Positions 985 through 38,379 of a DNA stretch of 39,017 nt are shown here, in pieces; positions within the stretch are counted from its first letter, which is position 1; every line of letters begins with the position of its first letter. A program made the position numbers and the translations under genes. A model generated the notes under the pieces. It saw only the letters and a program-made list of their open reading frames with translations. It searched no databases and was not told where the DNA came from. Source of the DNA: a phage; sequence record PZ168289.1; one strand, 5' to 3'.

Positions 985-1007
985 AGTCCCTATAGTGATA
1001 GTTTAGT
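985..1007 (-). promoter_or_regulatory. phage RNAP promoter (gene 6.5 upstream)
   Basis: Plus strand CCTATAGTGATAGTTTAG at 989-1006 = minus 5'-CTAAACTATCACTATAGG-3', same -7..+2 core as T7 CACTATAGG. Confidence 0.75.
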
Positions 1008-1133
1008 GTTTCACCTATGGATGACTGTTGGATTTATAGGATATGACTATCGGTTAGACTCAGTGTTTAGGACGGTTGTTCGACCCGAACCACTTGTACA
1101 TGCAGTAAATGGCCAGAAGTCCGACCCAGTAAA

Positions 1134-6652: not shown

Positions 6653-6672
6653 GGGACAGGACTCATTGTCCC
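6653..6672 (-). other. hairpin GGGACA-(8 nt)-TGTCCC upstream of primase-helicase
   Basis: Perfect 6-bp inverted repeat next to the variant promoter-like motif. Confidence 0.35.
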
Positions 6673-6694
6673 ATCCCTAAGGTGATAGTTTAGG
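6672..6694 (-). promoter_or_regulatory. variant promoter-like motif upstream of primase-helicase
   Basis: CCTAAGGTGATAGTTTAG; minus -4/-3 are CT instead of TA; may be weak or non-functional. Confidence 0.35.
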
Positions 6695-6905
6695 CTTTGA
6701 AGAACTGAGCCAACTGGTCAGCTTTGGTGTCAGCTTGACGTGCCTTCATGCCAGCTTCCAGTGACGCTATTGTCAGCTTGTCAGCCAGAGCAGCAGCATC
6801 AGCCGCACTGTCAGCAGTCTTCTTTTCTACCTTTCGTTCCAGTACCGCAGCACGACGATAACCACGCACCACCAGACGACCAAGAAATTCAATAAGTTTA
6901 ATCAT
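6690..6905 (-). CDS. hypothetical protein (gene 3.8 position)
   Basis: 71-aa ORF with AAGGAG 9 nt upstream of ATG 6905; stop lies inside the variant promoter-like motif at 6672-6694. Confidence 0.6.
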   Translation of the reverse strand: MIKLIEFLGRLVVRGYRRAAVLERKVEKKTADSAADAAALADKLTIASLEAGMKARQADTKADQLAQFFKA

Positions 6906-6929: not shown

Positions 6930-7388
6930 TTAACCACGGTCGGAAGTGACCAGTTCATTGGTAGACAGCCAGCGTTGCAAGTCGAAACTTGGACACGCCT
7001 TAGGTGCTACGTCATGGTGTGCTTTGATTTCTGCCTGAGGATACATGGACTTCAGGTCAGCCAGCTTGTTGCGCAGGGAGTTCATCTGGGCTGTAGTGAA
7101 GTTAGCTTCAAACTGACCCTTAGCGTTGATTCCACCTACAAGGCAGACGCCTACGGACTTGGAGTTCCAGTCCTTAACGTGTGACCCTACGACATTGACT
7201 GGGCGACCCTCTTCCACAGTGCCATCACGTTTGATGATAAAGTGGTAGCCTACGTCCAGCCAGCCTTGCTGCTTGTGCCACATACGGATGGTCTCTACCC
7301 CGATGTCCATCTCTGGCTTGGTAGCCGAACAGTGAACGAAGATAGCGTCAGTCCGGGACCGTGGGTTGAACTGTACCTTACTTACCAT
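6930..7388 (-). CDS. lysozyme / N-acetylmuramoyl-L-alanine amidase (T7 gp3.5-like)
   Basis: Near-identical blocks to T7 lysozyme (DAIFVHCSATKP, WLDVGYHFIIKRDGTVE, GVCLVGGI, APKACPSFDL, ELVTSDRG). Confidence 0.96.
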   Translation of the reverse strand: MVSKVQFNPRSRTDAIFVHCSATKPEMDIGVETIRMWHKQQGWLDVGYHFIIKRDGTVEEGRPVNVVGSHVKDWNSKSVGVCLVGGINAKGQFEANFTTAQMNSLRNKLADLKSMYPQAEIKAHHDVAPKACPSFDLQRWLSTNELVTSDRG

Positions 7389-7848
7389 TGTACACCACCA
7401 ATTCTACGACCACTAGATTCAGGTGCTGGGTGAAGCGCTGTGCGTCCGTGGTGTGCATCTGGAGACGCTTATGGTTGAAGACGTGTGAGTTGCTAATCTT
7501 CACGTAAACTTCTTCAGGCTTTCCGTGGACGATGAACGTCTGGCCTACACCAATCTTGTCGATGGTCAGGACTTCACGCTTCACAGTCACAGGCGGTACG
7601 CTCGAAGCTGGCAGGACTTGCGGTTTATCCTCTACGATTTCCTCAAGATGTTCTTTTAAAACCCACGCCCCCCACATACCGTCAGGCTGAGTGTCATAAC
7701 CTGCTGCTCCGTGTTTGTAGGCTCCACGCTCAGTGGATTCCACCAGAACATGTCCAGACGATGGTACAGGGTCTTTCGCACATTTCGTAACGATAGTACC
7801 TTTAGGCCACCCGTAGCCACTAACCTTAAGTCTATATTTCTGAGTCAT
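7378..7848 (-). CDS. orphan hypothetical protein inserted between endonuclease I and lysozyme
   Basis: 156-aa ORF; AGGAG 7 nt upstream of ATG 7848; start overlaps gp3 stop (TGATG); 3' end overlaps lysozyme start by 11 nt; no recognisable motif; T7 has no gene here. Confidence 0.6.
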   Translation of the reverse strand: MTQKYRLKVSGYGWPKGTIVTKCAKDPVPSSGHVLVESTERGAYKHGAAGYDTQPDGMWGAWVLKEHLEEIVEDKPQVLPASSVPPVTVKREVLTIDKIGVGQTFIVHGKPEEVYVKISNSHVFNHKRLQMHTTDAQRFTQHLNLVVVELVVYNGK

Positions 7849-8300
7849 CACTTAACTCCTTTCTTCTTGGGGATGAGGATACCTGAAGGCAGACGTACAG
7901 TCGCCTCTCGCAGCCACTCAACCGGGATGAACTTATCGGCATACTTATAGCCGTTCTTTTCGCACCATGCGCCATACGTGGTCGGAGACCCCTTGTATAA
8001 CTTGGAGCGGGAACTTGAGAACACGAACCGAATGTCTAACTCAGGGTGCTGTTCTTTAATCAATAGGTGCTTCTTACGGTCTTCCACTGCGAAGATTCCT
8101 TTGGTCTCCACAATTATTCCATTGGGCAATACAAAGTCTGGACAATAACTGTGTAGAGACTGAGGGATTGTGTATGCTATTTTATACATCTCGTATTCAG
8201 CCTTTACGCCATTCTTCTCCAGCCACTCTTGGTTCTTTGCCTCAAGACCAGACCTATATATTCCTACCGAATGTCCCCTGCTTATACTACGTGTAGCCAT
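7848..8300 (-). CDS. endonuclease I (T7 gp3-like Holliday junction resolvase)
   Basis: Strong similarity to T7 gp3 (YRSGLE, PDF.LPNGI.VETKG, DRKKHLLI.EQHPELDIR.VFSSS..KLYKGSPT.YG). Confidence 0.96.
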   Translation of the reverse strand: MATRSISRGHSVGIYRSGLEAKNQEWLEKNGVKAEYEMYKIAYTIPQSLHSYCPDFVLPNGIIVETKGIFAVEDRKKHLLIKEQHPELDIRFVFSSSRSKLYKGSPTTYGAWCEKNGYKYADKFIPVEWLREATVRLPSGILIPKKKGVK

Positions 8301-8731
8301 GTTTCTCTCCTTAGTATCTTACCTATTGTTGGCTGAGACACTCCGTAGATTGTGGCGAGCTGTCGCTGGGTAAGGCCAGAAGACCTAATTTCCTTGACTT
8401 TAGTATCAGTAAGTTTAGACATACCGCACTTCTCTCCCGGAACATGAGGAGGGTTTACACCGCGCCCCTTGTTACGCATGTCCTGAAGGTTATCCCTTTG
8501 GGTTCCTACAGTTAGATGCTCAGGGTTACAACATAGCGGAGTGTCACAAGTGTGTAGTAGAACACCATTTGGTTCTTCACCTGTAATCAGCTCGTAGGCT
8601 ACACGATGGGCAAGCATGGTTTTCCCATTATGCCTAATCTGACTGTAGCCATTGTTGTTAACGCAGCCAGTGAAAAGCCAGCAGCTACCCGAAACCCTGA
8701 GTCGCTGCTTGAGGCTTTCTATTGTAGCCAT
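8282..8731 (-). CDS. HNH homing endonuclease (copy 1 of 3)
   Basis: Cys-rich HNH motif (CW.FTGC, LAHRVAYEL, HTCD.PLCCNPEHL) plus C-terminal HTH-like tail; start overlaps SSB stop, end overlaps gp3 start. Confidence 0.85.
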   Translation of the reverse strand: MATIESLKQRLRVSGSCWLFTGCVNNNGYSQIRHNGKTMLAHRVAYELITGEEPNGVLLHTCDTPLCCNPEHLTVGTQRDNLQDMRNKGRGVNPPHVPGEKCGMSKLTDTKVKEIRSSGLTQRQLATIYGVSQPTIGKILRRETWLHVV

Positions 8732-9429
8732 TAGAAGTCGTAATCGCCACCAGAGCCAGAGTCGCCACCGCCTTCGGAACCATCATCACCGAAGTCATCG
8801 TCACCGAAGTCACCATCGGTTGACGCTTTGTAGCCAGTACCGAGGTCTTCATCATCACCCCAGCCACCATCGCCACCAGCACCATCACCTTTCCACTCCT
8901 TCAGTTCTACCAGAAGGCAGGACTCAAGCTGGAGCTTAACGCTTGCACCAGTCGCAGCGTTCCACTTGAACGGCAGGACTTTGAACTTGACCTTCAGCTT
9001 AGACCCAGCGCCAATATTCGGGACGTCACGGATGAGTTTAGCATCGGTGTCGTAGAACCGTAATACGATAGGCTCGGACTTGCCGTCTTTCAGGTAAGAC
9101 GCAAAGCATTTAAACTTCAGGGTAACAGTACCGTCACCATTCTCAATCCACGGCATGTCGCCTTCTCGTGGTTCAATAGGCTTCTTGCCACGCTGAACCT
9201 GAGGCGGGTTCTTCTCGTGGTCTGCGAGTGCTTTCGCATACGCATCGTCATGAATCTTCTGTAAGACATCAATCATCTTACGGACCTTCGGGTTGCTCAG
9301 GTCGAATGTCAGGTTAACCTTATGCTCACCACGCTCGTTAAACTTGGTGTCTGCTTTGTTCAGCCATGCGTAAGGCTCAACGATACCAGCTACCGGAGTG
9401 GTGAAAGTCTTCAGTTGCTCTTTAGCCAT
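8731..9429 (-). CDS. single-stranded DNA-binding protein (T7 gp2.5-like)
   Basis: 232 aa as in T7; conserved blocks (EPYAW, NPPQVQRGKKP, GDMPW..NGDGT.T.KFKC, WNAATGASVKLQLES.LLVEL) and acidic C-terminus ending DF. Confidence 0.96.
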   Translation of the reverse strand: MAKEQLKTFTTPVAGIVEPYAWLNKADTKFNERGEHKVNLTFDLSNPKVRKMIDVLQKIHDDAYAKALADHEKNPPQVQRGKKPIEPREGDMPWIENGDGTVTLKFKCFASYLKDGKSEPIVLRFYDTDAKLIRDVPNIGAGSKLKVKFKVLPFKWNAATGASVKLQLESCLLVELKEWKGDGAGGDGGWGDDEDLGTGYKASTDGDFGDDDFGDDGSEGGGDSGSGGDYDF

Positions 9430-9469: not shown

Positions 9470-9492
9470 CTGTCCTACAGTGATAGTTTAGG
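9470..9492 (-). promoter_or_regulatory. phage RNAP promoter (SSB upstream)
   Basis: CCTACAGTGATAGTTTAG, one mismatch at -3; contains the gp2 stop codon. Confidence 0.6.
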
Positions 9493-9646
9493 CCTCAGGA
9501 CGAATCCGTCCGACCACAAACCCAGCGTCCTCATACTCTTGGGACTTCAAGGTAGCCTCTTCAAGAGACTTTGCGTACACCGGAACCTCGAAGGACTTAA
9601 CGCGACCCTCAAGCTCCACGATGTACTTCTTCTCTACGTCAGTCAT
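9488..9646 (-). CDS. gp2-like inhibitor of host RNA polymerase
   Basis: 52-aa ORF (below track threshold), hand-translated; FEVPVYA...AGF.VGRIRP resembles T7 gp2; TAA stop lies inside promoter 9470-9492. Confidence 0.55.
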
Positions 9647-9724
9647 AGACCACGCTCCTTCCATAAGTTGTAGAGCTGAAGGTAATCGACGTTACCTGTC
9701 TCCTCAAATTTTCTCTCAGCCCAC

Positions 9725-10060
9725 TCACTCGGCAGCATAGCACTTACCTTTATGTAGGTCGAACAGCTCCTGATAGAAGGCTGCTTTGTTCAGGTCCTTC
9801 TCCATAGTAGCCAGCTCTGACTTCTTACCAGCTCGGAGTCGATACTTCAGGACGTTACCCATGCAGAAACCACGGAACTCGCTGACAGTCATTGACCGCG
9901 CGATAATCTCAATGGATTCCACGCCGTCAAAGACCTGATAGTGTGACGGCTTGCGAACCCCGTCATCTTTACTACACGCGGCGATGATGCTGGTAACAGC
10001 ACCGCAGTCGCACGAACCGAAGCTAAGGACCGAGCGGCACCACTCCTTGTGCTTAGCCAT
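9725..10060 (-). CDS. gp1.7-like protein, C-terminal domain only (T7 gp1.7 is a nucleotide kinase)
   Basis: KPSHYQVFDGVESIEIIARSMTVSEFRGFCMGNVLKYRLRAGKKSELA matches the C-terminal half of T7 gp1.7; 111 aa vs 196 in T7; AAGGAGGTGG RBS. Confidence 0.8.
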   Translation of the reverse strand: MAKHKEWCRSVLSFGSCDCGAVTSIIAACSKDDGVRKPSHYQVFDGVESIEIIARSMTVSEFRGFCMGNVLKYRLRAGKKSELATMEKDLNKAAFYQELFDLHKGKCYAAE

Positions 10061-10313
10061 TTACCACCTCCTTCACGTACTCAATGAATAGACGAACGCG
10101 AGGCCACTTAGTGTAGACCACGGGTACATTGGTCTCACGCTTCTGGCGAGCCTCTTCAGCTTTGCCCGGAGTAATCAGAGCGAAGACTGTAGGTGACATC
10201 TTAACGGCCTTCCCGAAGTAGCCCAGCTTCTCGTTGCGCTTAATGCAAGCGAACGGGTTGTTTGACAGGTGGAAGGTACTGGAATAACGGTTGAACATTA
10301 AGTTCTTAAACAT
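10053..10313 (-). CDS. hypothetical protein (gene 1.5/1.6 position)
   Basis: 86-aa ORF with AAGGAGG RBS before ATG 10313, just downstream of promoter 10342-10364. Confidence 0.65.
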   Translation of the reverse strand: MFKNLMFNRYSSTFHLSNNPFACIKRNEKLGYFGKAVKMSPTVFALITPGKAEEARQKRETNVPVVYTKWPRVRLFIEYVKEVVNG

Positions 10314-10341: not shown

Positions 10342-10364
10342 TTGTCCTATAGTGATAGCTTAGG
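10342..10364 (-). promoter_or_regulatory. phage RNAP promoter (gene 1.5/1.6 region)
   Basis: CCTATAGTGATAGCTTAG, one mismatch at -12; directly after the TE-like terminator. Confidence 0.65.
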
Positions 10365-10399
10365 GTCGGGCTGGTGGCCCAGACGATAGCTTGCTAGCA

Positions 10400-12058: not shown

Positions 12059-12103
12059 TTAATCATGAAGGCCACGACTTTAAGTCATGACCTTGAGTCT
12101 AAT
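12059..12103 (-). other. conserved RNA hairpin element, copy ii (putative RNase III site, R1.1-like position)
   Basis: Minus RNA AGGUCAUGAC-UUAAA-GUCGUGGCCU; compensatory changes relative to copies i and iii. Confidence 0.5.
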
Positions 12104-12122
12104 CCTATAGTGATAGTTTAGG
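12100..12122 (-). promoter_or_regulatory. phage RNAP promoter (gene 1.1 upstream)
   Basis: Perfect CCTATAGTGATAGTTTAG; transcript begins with the conserved hairpin element at 12059-12103. Confidence 0.75.
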
Positions 12123-12196
12123 TCAACCTCTTCTGCGTTGGATTAAAGTGAATACTGCTAGTGCTCCCAGCCACAAGGCCAGTAACTGTAGGTGTG

Positions 12197-15163: not shown

Positions 15164-15186
15164 GAGTCCTATAGTGATAGTTAAGT
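15164..15186 (-). promoter_or_regulatory. phage RNAP promoter directly upstream of the RNAP gene
   Basis: CCTATAGTGATAGTTAAG at 15168-15185, about 70 nt upstream of RNAP ATG 15095. Confidence 0.65.
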
Positions 15187-17459: not shown

Positions 17460-18093
17460 TTAAATAATATTGATTGAGCTATCGTCGGCCCCATAGTGTA
17501 AGAGGATATAGTCTTTGACTAACATGTCTTTGACCTTAAGTCTATAGCTGTGTGTCGATTAACTGTAGGCCTTTGACTGTAGGCGTTGGTGTCTTATGGT
17601 TGTGACTTATGGTTGTGACTTATGGTTGTGACTTATGGTTGTGACTTATGGTTGTGACTTATGGTTATACAGATAGAGACTCAGAGGCAGACCAATAGTC
17701 CCTACCTATCGTCTCCACCACCACCGATAGTCATGACCTATCGTTGACTTGAGGTATTTACAGCCGGTCCAACCTTATGATAGACTGGGGTAGGGCCTTT
17801 GGTCTGGACTTAAAGAGGGCCTATGGGGAGACTTGAGGTTCTTGAACTGTGAGATGTGGTCTCAAACTTTTGGTCCAAAACTCATCGTCCCTACTGTAGG
17901 ACACAGCCACTGTAGGTCAAGGACCGTAGGTCAGGCGACACTAGGATAGACCAATAAGTAGGATGACCCTAAGTGAGCTTCTATTAAGGTGTTACCTAAA
18001 GTCCTTGACTACAGTAGCTAAGGTCAGTAGAGTGAGTCTTTATCCACGTACTGACCTTAGGTCTTCCGCTCATGAATCGTTACCATGATTGCG
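17460..18093. repeat. ORF-free genome-terminus region with dispersed short repeats (likely holds the collapsed terminal repeat / concatemer junction)
   Basis: No ORF of any size with an RBS; recurrent short motifs (TAGGTCA/TGACCTA variants, TGTAGG); lies between the last late gene and the early promoters, where the T7 ends and terminal repeat map. Confidence 0.5.
17593..17670. repeat. tandem array of a 13-bp unit CTTATGGTTGTGA (5 perfect copies plus degenerate flanking copies)
   Basis: Perfect copies at 17593-17605, 17606-17618, 17619-17631, 17632-17644, 17645-17657; partial copy 17658-17670; in the ORF-free genome-end region. Confidence 0.9.
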
Positions 18094-18432: not shown

Positions 18433-18455
18433 CTTCCCTATAGTGATAGTTAAGT
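18433..18455 (-). promoter_or_regulatory. phage RNAP promoter (phi-OR-like, after terminase, before gp19.5)
   Basis: CCTATAGTGATAGTTAAG at 18437-18454. Confidence 0.7.
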
Positions 18456-23455: not shown

Positions 23456-23478
23456 GTTTCCTATAGTGATAGTTTAGT
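23456..23478 (-). promoter_or_regulatory. phage RNAP promoter (tail fiber upstream)
   Basis: Perfect core at 23460-23477; contains the gp16 TAA stop. Confidence 0.75.
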
Positions 23479-26400
23479 TCTTGATGTGGATGCCTTGCTC
23501 CTCAAACGTTCCAAGCAACAGCTTCTGGGTAATTGGGTCGTTCGGAACCAGCTCACGGAACGTATTATACATCCCGGTCATGTAGTCACGCTCGTTGACG
23601 CGAGTATCAGCCTTGAGGTAGCCAGCCAAGTTGTAAGCCGAAGCGCCAACGTTAGCAGCATATCCGAAAGCTGGAACCTGCTCCAAGAAGTTACCAACAA
23701 CATTCATAACAGGGTCACTTGTAGCCGCACCATACGCGATGGCACGTTCAGGCTGCTCTGTAGGCGAACGAGGTAGGATAGACGAACGGAGCATCTTAGT
23801 GTCCTCATACCCAGCGATGCCACCCAGAATGTTAGCTACCCCAAGTGGGCCACCCAGATGTGAACTACGGGACAGAGCCGCATATCCAATCATCGTCGGG
23901 TCCAGAGCTTGCTTGAGGTACTCACGGTCTCTGCCATCCTGCATAGCGTAAGCCTTGACGTGAGCCTGAGCCATGTAGTAGATACCAGCCAGACCCATAG
24001 ACATCACGGTAGATAGAGCAGCATCCATCGCTCGGTTGTTCTTCGTGGCGTTATAGAAGGTTCGCATGGTTCGCCCGTTGATGGACTTGATGACGAAGTT
24101 CTTAAACTGAAGGACAGTCTTAGCTAGAGGGCCATAAGCCTTGGCATCCATGTTTGACAGCTTGTGGGGCCGGAGTAACGTTTCGTCAGCGATGGTGTCA
24201 CCCATACGCCACAGGTCCATAGCCCTTGGGTCCTGACTGAACGCCTTCTTATCCTTGATGGTATACTTCCCGTCTGGACCACGAGTCACTGACTCACGGA
24301 TTAATGACTTAATGCCCTTCCACTGCTCGTCAGATATACCAGCGGTCTTCAGCCAGCGGTCATCGAACTTACGCTTACTACCAGTCAGGCTATGCTCCAC
24401 GATGTCAGACAGGAAGCCTTGACGTCCAGCATCTAACAGGTAGTTGGTCGTACCGTTGAGAACTTTAGTGAACGGAGAGCGTACTGCGAGTTCACCAGTG
24501 TAATACTTGGCAGTCCCCAGAGCTGTAGCTGTACCACGACCGAGGTCACTGTAAGACCGCAGACGGTCAATGACATCCTGTTTAGATGGGCGTATTGAGT
24601 CATCAAGTTCCTTACCAAAGATAACATTGTGCAGGTCCTTAATCTCTGAGGCCCCAACCTTCTTGTTACGGAAGGCTAGGTCACGGAAAATTGGGACTCC
24701 ATGCAGCATTGCACGAACGTTACCACGGGCCAGCATACCACCAATCTCCGTTAAGTTCTGAACACCCATATAGGCATTCTTAGCGAAGAACGATAGGTCT
24801 GTCATTGTGCGCATCACGGTAGCGAAGGCTGCATCGTCAGCACCATCACGTCGAGCACGACCAGTTAGAATCTTCAGGGTGTCACGCAAGGTAGATACTT
24901 CACCTTTCAACTTTCCGTCATCACCAGCCTTGTTCATCATGGTCTCAACCAAGTCCTTCATTTCTTTCGTTGTCTTGCCTGCACCAGCCATAATGGCAAT
25001 GTCACCATTAACTCGACGGTTGTATGCCGGGACAATCTTGTCCATGTCCCACTCCCGCAGGTTGTTGACACTGAAGGTTTGACCATTAGGAAGAACTATT
25101 GACATATCGCTGTCGAACAGGTTACGAGCCTCAAGGAAGCTGTTGTTCTCCAGACCAACCAGACCATTGATGTTCTCTTCCATTACGGATGAACGCTCGA
25201 ACTGCTCGGTGTGAGAGATACCATAAGCCTTATCGTTGGCGTACTTATCGACCGCAGCCGCAAGTCCTTCTGGAGTCAACGTAGGGTCAGCCTCTAAGAG
25301 TGCCTCGTCCACACGTTTCTTGACCTCAGGTCGAGACGCATAGCTGGTCAACCATGACTTCTTGATGGCCTCCTGCAACGCCTCTGGACTCCCAAGCTCC
25401 TTGATGTACAGCTCCTTCATCTGTTTGCTATACACATGAGGGACGTAGGTTCCCTTGAAGCGGCTACCCGGAAAGATAGACTGAGCGTCTGGCCGACCAA
25501 ACATAGCTGGGTTCTCCATCATCTCACGCTTGGCGTCAAACTGGTTCTTCAGTAGGTCATAGACTTTCAGTTCTCCCGGAGTCAGTTCAGCCTTCAGGTT
25601 TCCGCTACCATCTTCGATAGCCATAGACACACGCTGGTAGATGTCCTGACGGAATGCACCAGAGTCTCGCCAGAATGCTGTCTGGAAGTACGGGTCCTTT
25701 AGTGCCTCAGTAACCGCATCGTCGATGTCGTTGTATAACCGATGGTCCACAGCACGAAGTCTCTCGAATACGTCTGACGCAGTGGTCCCGATTTTACCTG
25801 AGGACCCTGATTGCATACCAGTCGGTGAACGTACTAAGTCAGCAGCTACTCCACGAATCTCAGGGTTCTCAGACCGAAGCAGCTTCAGACCAATCTCGGT
25901 AAGTCCACCAAGGTTCACACCAGCAGCGGCACGTTCAGGCTCAATCACTTCGTCAAAGACTTGACGTGTCTTAGGGTTCAGAGGGTTCTCACCAATCAGG
26001 ATTGAACCATCCTCCAGTCGTACACTACCCGGCTCATTCGGAACGTCAGCGAATTTAACGCCTTGATGACTAAAGGTCTGCTCACCTTCCTGAATAGGGA
26101 GACGAGACAGGTCCTGACCATCAACGTTACGAGCTGTCTCACGAGCTTCCAGACGTGTAGCTGGGCCAGCGAACTCATTAGTGTTGCGACCTAAGGCTCT
26201 GCCTAATCCATCAGCGATAGCAGTCATGCCCCCACCAAAGAGAGCACCGCCAAGGATAGCTTCAGCCACATGAGCATCACCACCAGCCACTGAGGTACGA
26301 GCCATCTCGGACACACCAGCCAGTGCTCCAGATTGAGCAGCCACGGTGAACATCTTGTTGACCAGCTTACCACCTTTACCAACCTGTCCAGCGATAGGAA

Positions 26401-31162: not shown

Positions 31163-31185
31163 AGTCCCTATAGTGATAGTTAAGG
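31163..31185 (-). promoter_or_regulatory. phage RNAP promoter (gp13 upstream) inside an inverted repeat
   Basis: CCTATAGTGATAGTTAAG at 31167-31184, flanked by GGGCCTATAG (31155-31164) and CTATAGGCCC (31191-31200). Confidence 0.7.
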
Positions 31186-35703: not shown

Positions 35704-35805
35704 ATGATAATTCTCCTATTCAATTGAAAGATAAAGTTTATTACTTACTGTACGCCCAATCCGTATGGACTGAAGTAATAGGGAAACCCTGAGTCTATCT
35801 CTTGG

Positions 35806-35828
35806 TCTCCCTATAGTGATAGTTTAGT
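35806..35828 (-). promoter_or_regulatory. phage RNAP promoter (major capsid upstream)
   Basis: Perfect core at 35810-35827; ~105-nt leader to capsid ATG 35703. Confidence 0.8.
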
Positions 35829-35829
35829 C

Positions 35830-36714
35830 CTACAGGCTTGAGGCAGCTACCTTAGCGCGAACTTCCATCGTGTACTTAGCGTCACGCAGGTATCGCGGGT
35901 CACTCATAGCCTTAATCATGTCAGCCTTGGAGCTGAATGCTTCGGTCTGAGGAGCCTTAGGTGCGACCACAGGTTTAGCCTGAGTGGTGATGGTACGCTG
36001 AGGTTTAACACCCACAGCTTTACCCAGAGTCTTGCCAGCCAGATTCAGCAGAGCTTTGGTAGTCGCAATGTCCTTACGAACGATAGCAGCTTCCAGTGCC
36101 TCACGAGTTGACGGGTCGTTTGACTCAAGGTGTGACAGGATGCGATTAAACTGTTCAGCACCACCAGCGTAGCGAACCACACCAGCAGCATACTGTTCAG
36201 CCAGAGCTTCCTGACCACGGACAAACGAATCTACGAAACGCTTGGTGTAACCTGCTTCCTGCAACTTAGCGTAGGATGCGTCAGACAGCTTACCGTCCTT
36301 GGCGTATTCAGCCTTGATAGCGGTAATTTCATCAGCAGTGACCTTGCCAGCTTCTACAGCAGAAGACACCATGTCGTCAAATGCAGCTTCGTTTTCATCC
36401 AGAGCGGTGACACTTTCGGTCAACTCTTTCGGTGCATCACCCAGTTCGATGAACTCAGGCTGCTCACCATCGGTCTCAGACTCTTCGTCATCTGACTCGT
36501 GGTCTTCTTCACCTTCAGTCTCCTCGACGTTATCGTCTTCTTCGGTCGCCTCTTCGTTTTCGGCTTCCAGTTGCTTGAAGGTAATAGCGTCATCGCCATC
36601 ACGAACAGCTACGTCCTGTTCAAGCATAGACTTTTGGTGTTCGTTCAGGTCCTCAACGGAACCAGTGATTGCATTAGAGCTAACGCCGAACTCGGCATAA
36701 ACTGATTGAGACAT
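35830..36714 (-). CDS. capsid assembly/scaffolding protein (T7 gp9-like)
   Basis: 294 aa, highly acidic, between portal and capsid genes, downstream of promoter 36793-36815. Confidence 0.88.
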   Translation of the reverse strand: MSQSVYAEFGVSSNAITGSVEDLNEHQKSMLEQDVAVRDGDDAITFKQLEAENEEATEEDDNVEETEGEEDHESDDEESETDGEQPEFIELGDAPKELTESVTALDENEAAFDDMVSSAVEAGKVTADEITAIKAEYAKDGKLSDASYAKLQEAGYTKRFVDSFVRGQEALAEQYAAGVVRYAGGAEQFNRILSHLESNDPSTREALEAAIVRKDIATTKALLNLAGKTLGKAVGVKPQRTITTQAKPVVAPKAPQTEAFSSKADMIKAMSDPRYLRDAKYTMEVRAKVAASSL

Positions 36715-36792: not shown

Positions 36793-36815
36793 AGTTCCTA
36801 TAGTGATAGTTTAGG
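36793..36815 (-). promoter_or_regulatory. phage RNAP promoter (scaffold upstream)
   Basis: Perfect core at 36797-36814; contains the portal TAA stop; leader has hairpin CCGGG-AGTCTCA-CCCGG (36751-36767). Confidence 0.75.
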
Positions 36816-38379
36816 CTTGAGCCATGTCCTCACCAGCTCCCTGACCTACAGCAGCGCCCATGTTAGCACCAGCAGCAGACGCACCGTTGACCACAGCTCC
36901 TTGAGTGGATTGTTCAGCCATACGTTGCAGCTTCTCGTCCTGAGTCAGCAGTAGACCAGCGGTGTCAATGCCTAAGGCATTCAGCAGTCGCAGCTTCAGG
37001 GTCGGCAAGTTAATGTCTGGGTCCTGTTGCAGAGGCTGTAGCCCGGTCATCATGTTGACTGCCTGAGTCAACTTCTCTAAGTCTTGACCACGACCTAACG
37101 CTTCCAGACCAGTGGAGACCGTAGGCTCTACCGCTTCTTTCGGAAGGTCAGGAATCATGCCAGCAGACTGAAGTTGGTTCATCAGCACACGGACGATAGG
37201 TAACTGAAGCTCTTGTGACTGTACTGAGTACACGCCACCTAAGGTCGCCTCCAGTTCGCCAGCAACATAACGAATCTCTTCAGCAGTGACTCGCTCGGCA
37301 TTACGCTGAACAGCACTATTAAGAAGGAAGGCCCAGCCTAAACGTTGCTCGATAGCATCAGCCACCGACTTGGCAATCGTAAAGTCCTGACCTTTCGTCA
37401 GTTGAAGGAAGTTGATGTCCTCAACGCGACCAGCCACGAACTCACCTGTAGCCGCCTTGTTCAGACGACGAGGTTGCGTGATACCGTTCGGGTTAACGAG
37501 GCCCACCACCTTGGAGGCTACCTTAGCCATTTTGGTGATAGCTTCTGTAATCGTCTCCAGCGAGTTCAGGTCTCCCAGATACTCCTCGCAGTAAGAACGA
37601 CCATAGTCTTCACCATCCAGTCGAACCATTCGCACCGGGATGTACGGACAGGCAGTCAGTGGGTAAGAACCCTCGGTCCCTGCTACCTCAATTCCTTCCA
37701 CTTCCTCGTATCGCAGATACTCGTCGTCCTGACGGTAGATGTGCGTATATACTTCCAGCTCGGTGTCAGGCTCATAGTCGTCTGCGTTGAGTTGTGACTT
37801 CACGTCTTCCGGTAGAGCACTAAACGCTACCTTGTCGAGAGTCACAATCTGCAAGATATTACCGAAAGCATCACGTTGAACAACGTAGGACACTAAGCGG
37901 TACATTCGCATAGGACTGTAAGTACCCTGTTCAGGCTCTGGAATGTATAGCAGACAGTTACCGGAGACGATAAGCTGCTTCAGAGCTTCGAACAATGGCA
38001 CGCGGAAACTGTTAGTCTCCATGTAGGCCATCAACACACGCTCGACCATAGCAAGCCCTTCGTCAACACGAGCAGCAGCCTCTGAGTCCTGACTCAAGGT
38101 CTTGGCCTCATATTCGGAGACTGTCAGTCGCATCCACGGTGACTGAGGGAATAACGCCAACATCAGCTTTGCAGCCAAGTTGTTCAAACAGCGAGCACCT
38201 ACAGCTTGCCACGGCGTCACGTATTCCGTAGAGGAGTTGTCTGACTCCTTGGGAAATAGCGAGGGGATGGTCACGGCAGCGCAGTTCTGTGCGCGGGTCT
38301 CGTAAGGCTGTCGTCCGTTCTTCAATCTATCATAAACTGACTTCGCGCCTTCAGCAGCAAATCCTTCACGTTCAGCCAT
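36811..38379 (-). CDS. portal (head-to-tail connector) protein (T7 gp8-like)
   Basis: Collinear with T7 gp8 (GAKSVY.RLKN.R.PYETRAQNCA, IPSLFPK.SDN.ST.Y.TPWQAVGAR.LNNLA.KLMLALFP, RLDGE.YGRSY.EEYLGDL, RVTAEEIRYVA.ELE.TLGGVYS). Confidence 0.97.
   Translation of the reverse strand: MAEREGFAAEGAKSVYDRLKNGRQPYETRAQNCAAVTIPSLFPKESDNSSTEYVTPWQAVGARCLNNLAAKLMLALFPQSPWMRLTVSEYEAKTLSQDSEAAARVDEGLAMVERVLMAYMETNSFRVPLFEALKQLIVSGNCLLYIPEPEQGTYSPMRMYRLVSYVVQRDAFGNILQIVTLDKVAFSALPEDVKSQLNADDYEPDTELEVYTHIYRQDDEYLRYEEVEGIEVAGTEGSYPLTACPYIPVRMVRLDGEDYGRSYCEEYLGDLNSLETITEAITKMAKVASKVVGLVNPNGITQPRRLNKAATGEFVAGRVEDINFLQLTKGQDFTIAKSVADAIEQRLGWAFLLNSAVQRNAERVTAEEIRYVAGELEATLGGVYSVQSQELQLPIVRVLMNQLQSAGMIPDLPKEAVEPTVSTGLEALGRGQDLEKLTQAVNMMTGLQPLQQDPDINLPTLKLRLLNALGIDTAGLLLTQDEKLQRMAEQSTQGAVVNGASAAGANMGAAVGQGAGEDMAQA

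What the first reader, a model, noticed from the sequence alone, without database searches (positions are those of the whole stretch)
7378..7848. Orphan 156-aa gene inserted between endonuclease I and lysozyme
In the T7 gene plan, endonuclease I (gene 3) and lysozyme (gene 3.5) are adjacent. Here a 156-aa ORF with a good AGGAG Shine-Dalgarno sits between them, its ATG overlapping the gp3 stop and its 3' end overlapping the lysozyme start by 11 nt. I recognise no motif in it. An accessory gene pressed into the DNA-metabolism/lysis-control module of an otherwise conserved backbone is a plausible anti-defence or host-takeover cargo gene and the best candidate here for something undescribed.
Basis: partly seen in the sequence, partly recalled or inferred. 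Interest (0 to 1): 0.72.

Follow-up and report, generated by a model that had tools for sequence, protein, structure and literature searches.

The report
Conserved K1F-type gp3.2, hypervariable N-module
The "orphan" gene is real but not an orphan: it is the uncharacterised gp3.2 found between endonuclease I and lysozyme in almost all K1F-like phages, and it joins a nearly frozen C-terminal mini-barrel to a swappable, fast-evolving N-terminal mini-barrel that looks like a host-interaction surface.

Summary
An AGGAG site lies 7 nt upstream. The gene overlaps the endonuclease I stop by 1 nt and the amidase start by 11 nt. "Orphan" and "inserted" are wrong. The window is a Kayfunavirus and the gene is K1F gp3.2 (PHROG 16385, function unknown). 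Its C-terminal ~70 aa occur in 221 phage records, always directly after gene 3. T7 has no such gene.

The protein is two SH3-like beta-barrels joined by a conserved proline-rich linker. The C-module (invariant SNSHVFN-x4-QMHTT-x3-RF) is under strong purifying selection (omega 0.12) and exists alone as a 74-aa protein in most relatives. The N-module is one of at least seven unrelated cassettes. The window's type occurs in 56 records, mostly E. coli phages. It has about 18 hypervariable loop positions evolving at or above the neutral rate (omega about 1.3-2.2). The closest relative (97% nt identity in the flanks) lacks it.

No homologue exists outside this phage group among 1.84 billion representative proteins, and I found no literature on function. 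The best reading is a bipartite adaptor or inhibitor engaged with a strain-variable host factor. That mechanism is inferred, not shown.

The parts
7378..7848 (-). gp3.2 coding sequence (156 aa plus stop), a member of the K1F gp3.2 / PHROG 16385 family
   Evidence: dN/dS
7856..7860 (-). Shine-Dalgarno AGGAG, 7 nt upstream of the ATG, lying inside the end of gene 3
   Evidence: read directly from the sequence
7633..7848 (-). N-module (aa 1-72), class A: SH3-like beta-barrel with invariant scaffold GWPxGT..LVE..YKHG..QPxGMWGAWV and about 18 hypervariable positions (9-12, 16, 28, 30, 31, 33, 39, 43, 49, 51, 64-67, 72)
7591..7632 (-). Linker (aa 73-86, VEDKPQVLPASSVP): predicted disordered and proline-rich, yet constrained at protein level (omega 0.22). 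It is shared by several N-module classes
7381..7590 (-). C-module (aa 87-156), matching PHROG 15211: small SH3/Tudor-like barrel, basic (pI 9.5), nearly invariant. It is an autonomous 74-aa protein in most relatives
7432..7506 (-). Invariant core motif Y-x3-SNSHVFN-x4-QMHTT-x3-RF (aa 115-139), conserved even in relatives that are only 30% identical
7378..7388 (-). 11-nt overlap of the gp3.2 end with the gp3.5 (amidase) start. This junction is conserved in the 26 Kayfunavirus/Caroctavirus loci surveyed, consistent with translational coupling
7570..7837 (-). Segment (N-module plus linker) absent from the closest relative, EcoIv1_Emlis. The adjacent C-module DNA (about 7400-7569) is only 68-85% identical, while both flanks are about 97% identical, so the whole gene is an exchanged cassette
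7848..8300 (-). Gene 3, endonuclease I. Its stop overlaps the gp3.2 start. The link to gene 3 is the one junction conserved in every clade
6930..7388 (-). Gene 3.5, amidase/lysozyme, immediately downstream
9473..9499 (-). Nearest upstream copy of the repeated phage-promoter element (minus strand CCTAAACTATCACTGTAGGA; the family consensus has ...CTATAGG). The next copy is at 6669-6700. So gp2.5, HNH, gp3, gp3.2, gp3.5 and gp3.7 form one middle-gene transcription unit
   Evidence: no sigma-70-like site and no terminator-like site inside the unit

Best explanation
SHOWN: this is the Kayfunavirus gene 3.2, a real middle-class gene. It shares a transcription unit with SSB, endonuclease I and lysozyme, and its start and stop overlap both neighbours. 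It encodes two small SH3-like beta-barrels joined by a conserved proline-rich linker. The C-module is a constant unit that is almost universal in the lineage, works alone in most relatives, and carries an invariant polar motif. The N-module is an exchangeable cassette with hypervariable loop positions. INFERRED (my commitment, about 35-40% likely): gp3.2 is a non-enzymatic bipartite binder. The constant C-module docks onto a conserved partner through its invariant S/N/H/Q/T/R face. That partner is most plausibly endonuclease I or the DNA it works on, because linkage to gene 3 is the only junction kept in all clades and the module is basic in the Kayfunavirus clade. The N-module uses the loops that form the ligand-binding face of canonical SH3 domains (RT loop, n-Src loop, 3-10 helix) to bind a host factor that varies between strains. 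That factor is most likely an intracellular defence or nuclease component, and the contest with it drives diversification and cassette swapping. Phages on hosts that lack that factor carry other cassettes or none.
For: Identity and ubiquity. A tiny, phage-restricted family: 19 representative proteins among 1.84e9. Two confident beta-barrel models: N-module pLDDT about 90, C-module pLDDT 81. SH3-like folds. No catalytic-family or other signature. At least seven unrelated N-modules on one constant C-module, including a tandem A+B form. All N-modules tested by tblastn (classes A, B, C) occur only in this slot. Cassette exchange between backbones that are 97% identical. Selection contrast in 11 disjoint close pairs: N-module omega 0.92, hypervariable sites 2.24, C-module 0.12, with an N:S odds ratio of 8.4 (p = 1e-22). 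Host bias of the class A module: 39/88 Escherichia phage records against 1/59 Salmonella (p = 7e-10). Constant linkage to endonuclease I in distant clades, where the downstream neighbour differs. C-module pI 9.0-10.2 in the Kayfunavirus clade.
Confidence: 0.4

Rival explanations
1. Phage-internal accessory factor. The C-module modulates endonuclease I, or lysozyme and its control of the phage RNA polymerase, as part of normal DNA metabolism and lysis timing. The N-modules are dispensable appendages whose loops drift almost neutrally.
For: Genus-wide presence and very strong purifying selection on the C-module. Overlapping start and stop with genes 3 and 3.5, and one shared transcription unit. 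Most phages manage with the C-module alone. Whole N-domain omega is about 0.9, not above 1.
Against: T7 and its close relatives run the same gene 3 / 3.5 module without any such protein. Two C-module alleles that differ by about 20% work with gp3 and gp3.5 proteins that are 97% identical. This view explains neither the repeated acquisition of unrelated structured N-modules nor the host bias of class A. The N-module scaffold is itself under purifying selection (omega 0.22-0.34), so it is not junk.
Confidence: 0.25
2. Target rather than weapon. The N-module, or the whole protein, is what a host immune sensor recognises. The hypervariable loops and the frequent loss or replacement of the module reflect escape from that recognition.
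For: The same diversification and presence/absence data. The short form lacking the N-module is the commonest state.
Against: If the module were only a liability, simple loss would be expected instead of maintaining a constrained scaffold and repeatedly gaining new structured modules, including tandem ones.
Confidence: 0.12
3. Small-molecule sponge. The invariant polar pocket of the C-module sequesters an immune signalling nucleotide, as Tad1, Tad2 and Acb2 do.
Confidence: 0.06
4. One reading: an orphan cargo gene newly inserted between genes 3 and 3.5 of a conserved T7 backbone.
For: T7 itself has nothing between genes 3 and 3.5. No motif is recognisable.
Against: More than 250 homologues exist, with annotated counterparts in K1F, EcoDS1, CR44b and CR8. 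The gene is present in this slot in every related locus examined.
Confidence: 0.03
5. Diversity-generating retroelement target, or a non-coding or chance ORF.
For: Hypervariable positions set in an invariant scaffold superficially resemble a DGR variable region.
Against: There is no template repeat of the N-module DNA anywhere in the 39-kb genome, and no adenine bias at the variable codons. No reverse transcriptase is expected in a T7-like genome (established knowledge; not tested here). The coding signal is unambiguous.
Confidence: 0.01

Closest known systems
K1F gp3.2 (CAJ29361), EcoDS1 gp3.2, CR44b gp3.01; PHROG 16385
   Same: Same gene: a full-length match, the same slot between genes 3 and 3.5, and the same overlapping junctions. 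Identity is 72-98%.
   Different: Nothing differs in kind. The window's allele differs mainly at the hypervariable N-module positions. None of these proteins has a known function.
Dev2 / SH3-SH5 gp3.2 (74 aa; PHROG 15211) and CR8 gp3.01
   Same: They share the constant C-module and the slot.
   Different: They lack the N-module (Dev2) or carry an unrelated one (CR8). The window has the class A module.
Canonical SH3 domains and bacterial SH3-like/Tudor/KOW barrels (spectrin SH3, FeoA, DtxR C-domain, NusG KOW)
   Same: The fold of both modules on predicted models. The N-module superposes on SH3 domains at 1.4-2 A over about 49 residues.
   Different: There is no sequence-family membership (no Pfam hit). 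The distal loop is unusually long (residues 39-58) and conserved. Ligand type is unknown.
AcrIIA1-type anti-CRISPR fusions and T4 internal proteins (one constant domain plus a variable effector); cited from my own knowledge, not tested
   Same: The logic of one conserved module joined to interchangeable, fast-evolving modules within a fixed phage locus.
   Different: There is no sequence or fold relationship. The constant module here is not an HTH or a capsid-targeting peptide. The anti-defence role is unproven.
T7 gene 3 / 3.5 region
   Same: The flanking genes and their order, and an HNH gene homologous to T7 gene 2.8.
   Different: T7 has no gene between 3 and 3.5.

Membership tests
K1F gp3.2 family (PHROG 16385) | End-to-end profile match | tested here: met
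   phrog_16385 at E = 1.3e-93, residues 1-156 on profile positions 1-157 of 157
K1F gp3.2 family (PHROG 16385) | Position between endonuclease I and amidase, with overlapping start and stop | tested here: met
K1F gp3.2 family (PHROG 16385) | C-terminal motif SNSHVFN-x4-QMHTT-x3-RF | tested here: met
SH3-like small beta-barrel (structural class) | Five-stranded barrel that superposes on SH3 domains | tested here: met
Canonical SH3 sequence families (Pfam SH3 clan) | Profile match above the gathering score | tested here: not met
   No Pfam family matched even at E up to 1
Canonical SH3 sequence families (Pfam SH3 clan) | Binding of proline-rich (PxxP) peptides | not testable with these tools
   Needs binding assays. 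The conserved linker LPASSVPP is a speculative internal ligand
Known anti-defence proteins (for example the Tad2 sponge) | Sequence or significant structural similarity to a characterised member | tested here: not met
Known anti-defence proteins | Restores phage growth on a host that carries a defence system | not testable with these tools
   Requires plaque assays
Defence-system components (PADLOC) | Profile match | tested here: not met
   0 families at E up to 10
DGR variable protein | A template repeat elsewhere in the genome, with adenine-specific variation | tested here: not met
   No second copy of the N-module DNA. Adenine frequency is 0.35 at hypervariable codons against 0.30 elsewhere
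Orphan (ORFan) gene | No homologues in other genomes | tested here: not met
   255 homologous protein clusters and 221 phage records

The most novel reading that the evidence does not exclude
gp3.2 would define a new class of modular phage host-interaction factors. A constant SH3-like docking module tethers interchangeable, diversifying SH3-like 'warheads' to the endonuclease I / DNA-metabolism machinery, or to a conserved host hub. Each warhead neutralises or evades a different strain-specific intracellular defence. The gene 3 / 3.5 slot of K1F-like phages would then be a compact cassette library of undescribed counter-defence specificities.
Probability: 0.25. Interest if true: 0.75.

Novelty: new member of a known kind. 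Interest (0 to 1): 0.42.

Why it matters
K1F-like phages are used and engineered against encapsulated and O-antigen-bearing E. coli, Salmonella Typhi, Enterobacter and Citrobacter. Their host range inside the cell is poorly understood. A gene present in almost every member, with a frozen module and a cassette-like module that may be under diversifying selection, is a concrete and cheap target for deletion, module swaps and pull-downs. If the N-modules prove to be strain-specific counter-defence or defence-evasion determinants, the slot would offer several new specificities at once. It would also be a natural site for engineering host range. If instead the C-module regulates endonuclease I or lysozyme, that would reveal a layer of control absent from the T7 paradigm.

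Full report
OBSERVATION. The ORF exists exactly as described, on the minus strand. The ATG is at 7848, the stop at 7378-7380, and the product is 156 aa. A GTG three bases upstream would give 157 aa. On the minus strand the upstream sequence reads AAAGGAGTTAAGTGATG, so an AGGAG site (7860-7856) lies 7 nt before the ATG. The TGA stop of the upstream gene shares one base with the ATG. The last 11 nt (7378-7388) overlap the ATG of the downstream gene. The upstream gene is endonuclease I (Pfam Phage_endo_I, 2e-74) and the downstream gene is an Amidase_2 lysozyme (1e-15).

WHAT THE GENOME IS. The 2.9-kb neighbourhood is 92-96% identical to many Kayfunavirus (K1F-like) phages. All long ORFs lie on the minus strand. 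The 39,017-base window appears to be a whole genome, reverse-complemented and circularly permuted.

NOT AN ORPHAN, NOT AN INSERTION. The protein matches PHROG 16385 (function unknown) end to end at 1.3e-93. Its residues 87-156 match a second family of 74-aa proteins, PHROG 15211, at 5.5e-40. In K1F the same gene is annotated gp3.2 (9706-10179), between gp3 and gp3.5. EcoDS1 calls it gp3.2, and CR44b and CR8 call it 3.01. A tblastn search finds it in 221 phage records. The large protein collection holds 255 homologous clusters, nearly all from contigs of about 39-40 kb. I surveyed 27 related loci, and every one has a gene with the same C-terminal module directly after endonuclease I. In the 26 Kayfunavirus and Caroctavirus loci, the same start overlap and the same 11-nt overlap with the amidase are present. 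In this stretch the real insertion relative to K1F is the HNH endonuclease gene at 8282-8731, a 40%-identical homologue of T7 gp2.8.

IT IS A REAL, EXPRESSED-LOOKING GENE. Among 13 full-length DNA copies, synonymous divergence is high (dS 0.5-1.1) while dN/dS is 0.24 for the N half and 0.10 for the C half. Conservation is therefore at the protein level. The repeated phage-promoter element (minus-strand consensus CCTAAACTATCACTATAGG) has copies at 9473-9499, upstream of gp2.5, and at 6669-6700, upstream of gene 4. No copy lies between them, and there is no sigma-70-like or terminator-like site inside that stretch. The gene therefore belongs to one middle-class transcription unit: gp2.5, HNH, gp3, gp3.2, gp3.5, gp3.7. 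No Rfam family matches anywhere in the window.

THE C-MODULE IS THE CONSTANT UNIT. It stands alone as a 74-76-aa protein in most relatives, for example Dev2, SH3-SH5 and the Salmonella Typhi phages. The motif Y-x3-SNSHVFN-x4-QMHTT-x3-RF is invariant even in relatives that are only 30% identical, such as Providencia phage PSTCR2 and P0136-P0138. It is basic in the Kayfunavirus clade (pI 9.0-10.2) but neutral in the PSTCR2 clade. In PSTCR2 two extra genes separate it from the amidase. In both PSTCR2 and the P0136 contig it still directly follows endonuclease I with a 4-nt overlap. Linkage to gene 3 is therefore the conserved junction.

THE N-MODULE IS A CASSETTE. At least seven unrelated N-terminal modules are fused to the constant C-module:
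- Class A, the window's type.
- Class B (CKDLEVGTRYRF...).
- Class C (YRVLxT...RFEEV; CR8).
- The N-termini of P0142, P0143 and P0146.
- The PSTCR2, P0136 and P0147 types.
- A tandem A+B form of 226-227 aa.
In one case (P0138) the N-module is the N-terminal 70 aa of the separate gene that follows in PSTCR2. None of these modules has any Pfam or PHROG annotation. Classes A, B and C occur in 56, 27 and 4 phage records respectively, always in this slot. The profile of the class B module is not detectably related to the C-module (hhalign probability 5%). The exhaustive HMMER profile search of 1.84 billion representative proteins finds only 19 proteins, all of this family or frameshifted fragments of it. 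Neither module has a detectable relative in bacteria or in other viruses.

RECENT EXCHANGE. The window and its closest relative, EcoIv1_Emlis, are about 97% identical from 9800 down to 7838. They then differ by an indel spanning 7837-7570, which is exactly the N-module plus linker; Emlis has the short form. They are only 68-85% identical across the C-module DNA, and return to about 97% from about 7400 onward. The whole gene is thus a recombination cassette bounded by the end of gene 3 and the start of gene 3.5.

SELECTION.
- About 18 N-module positions (9-12, 16, 28, 30, 31, 33, 39, 43, 49, 51, 64-67, 72) carry 9-18 residue types among 119 proteins that are otherwise 70-98% identical. They sit between invariant scaffold residues.
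- Parsimony counting on 32 unique DNA copies gives omega 1.27 at those sites, 0.22 for the rest of the N-module, 0.22 for the linker and 0.12 for the C-module. Positions 11, 28, 30, 31, 33, 43 and 64 change at about 2-2.5 times the regional synonymous rate.
- To avoid saturation I used closely related pairs. Pooled over 87 pairs, the whole N-domain pN/pS is 0.74 against 0.12 for the C-domain.
- In 11 phylogenetically disjoint pairs, omega is 0.92 for the whole N-domain, 2.24 for the hypervariable set (binomial p = 0.001) and 0.34 for the remainder of the N-domain. It is 0.12 for the C-domain. The N:S contrast between the two domains has an odds ratio of 8.4 (p = 1e-22).
- Caveats: the hypervariable set was chosen from the same family after seeing the data, single-site tests are weak (best p = 0.028), and recombination is present. 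The fair statement is that these positions evolve at or above the neutral rate. Diversifying selection is likely but not proven.
- There is no template repeat and no adenine bias, so a DGR is excluded.
- By secondary-structure order, the hypervariable positions fall in the RT loop (9-12, 16), the n-Src loop (28-33), the 3-10 turn between strands 4 and 5 (64-67), and the long distal-loop insertion (39-51). The first three elements form the ligand-binding face of canonical SH3 domains.

HOST ASSOCIATION. Class A is carried by 39 of 88 records named Escherichia phage, against 1 of 59 Salmonella and 0 of 18 Enterobacter (Fisher p = 7e-10 and 1e-4). This is not corrected for phage phylogeny.

MECHANISM.
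Shown: a conserved, co-transcribed gene whose start and stop overlap both neighbours; two SH3-like barrels; one frozen module and one exchangeable module evolving near or above the neutral rate; and no enzymatic signature.
Inferred: gp3.2 is a non-enzymatic bipartite binder. The constant module docks, through its invariant polar face, onto a conserved partner. I favour endonuclease I or its DNA substrate, because of the invariant gene linkage and the basic charge. The N-module engages a strain-variable intracellular host factor, most plausibly a defence or nuclease component. I put about 0.4 on this overall picture.
Rivals:
- A purely phage-internal regulator of endonuclease I or lysozyme with drifting appendages (0.25).
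- The N-module as the target of host sensing, rather than a weapon (0.12).
- A small-molecule sponge built on the C-module pocket (0.06).
- The orphan-insertion reading as originally written (0.03).
- A DGR target or chance ORF (0.01).

LITERATURE. The only paper in the searchable library that names gp3.2 lists it without a function in a gene table. The motif occurs in no paper, nor in the supplements of the phage accessory-gene screen. The BASEL extension paper and the hypervariability-hotspot paper say nothing about this locus.

VERDICT. The gene is an ordinary member of a known but uncharacterised family, so I classify it as a new member of a known kind. The modular architecture and the evolutionary contrast between its halves were not described in any paper I could search. 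They make it a reasonable, testable host-interaction candidate. Interest is moderate (0.42).

Noticed in passing
window 8282-8731 (-): HNH endonuclease with a C-terminal HTH (Pfam HNH_3 at 4e-10) sits between gp2.5 and gene 3 and overlaps the gene 3 start by 19 nt. It is 40% identical to T7 gp2.8 (E = 3e-30). K1F lacks it at this position, while PE3-1, HC13, JSS1 and Emlis have it. This is the actual insertion relative to K1F in this stretch, and a homing endonuclease here could promote local marker exchange.
   Followed up: partly
window 17576-17679: Tandem array of a 13-nt unit (GTGACTTATGGTT), about 8 copies, in a non-coding stretch. It may be a genome-end or early-region repeat of the kind seen near T7 ends. 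Not examined.
   Followed up: no
window 1-39017: All long ORFs are on the minus strand, and the window is about one genome length (39,017 bases against 39.0-40.6 kb for relatives). It looks like a complete genome, reverse-complemented and circularly permuted.
   Followed up: partly
window 988-1014, 6669-6700, 9473-9499, 10345-10371, 12103-12129, 15168-15186, 18437-18455, 23459-23485, 31167-31185, 35803-35834, 36796-36822: At least 11 copies of a conserved element of about 19 nt (plus strand CCTATAGTGATAGTTTAGG; minus strand CCTAAACTATCACTATAGG). These are presumably the promoters of the phage RNA polymerase. The copy at 6669-6700 is a variant (AAGG in place of ATAG) and overlaps a hairpin at 6653-6672.
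   Followed up: partly
window 8766-8886 (-): Short direct repeats inside the 3' end of gp2.5. They encode the acidic, glycine- and aspartate-rich C-terminal tail (…GDDDFGDDGSEGGGDSGSGGDYDF).
   Followed up: no
P0141; window minus-strand ORF 7656-7820: A database protein (P0141, 157 aa) has an N-terminus that is the alternative reading frame of the N-module and rejoins the normal frame at GAWV. It matches the window's out-of-frame ORF at 7656-7820. P0149, P0150 and P0151 are likewise truncated or frameshifted. These are either assembly errors or natural inactivation of the N-module.
   Followed up: no
L004 (Providencia phage PSTCR2) 2339-3371; P0138: In PSTCR2 the slot between endonuclease I and the amidase holds three genes. 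The first 70 aa of the second gene (QPB11930) recur, about 85% identical, as the N-module fused to the constant C-module in P0138. So modules shuffle between separate genes in this slot.
   Followed up: partly
P0103, P0139 (226-227 aa): Three-module versions: class A N-module, then a class B module, then the constant C-module.
   Followed up: partly
L002, L015-L027, L135 compared with window 7540-7560: Short-form (C-module only) alleles consistently read KIPVGYAF where long forms read KIGVGQTF (residues 98-105). These residues may contact the linker or the N-module in the long forms.
   Followed up: no
window 7591-7632 (-): The predicted-disordered linker is proline-rich (PQVLPASSVPP) and conserved at protein level (omega 0.22) across N-module classes A and B and the P0142/P0143 types. 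It could be a short linear motif, possibly an internal ligand for one of the SH3-like barrels.
   Followed up: no
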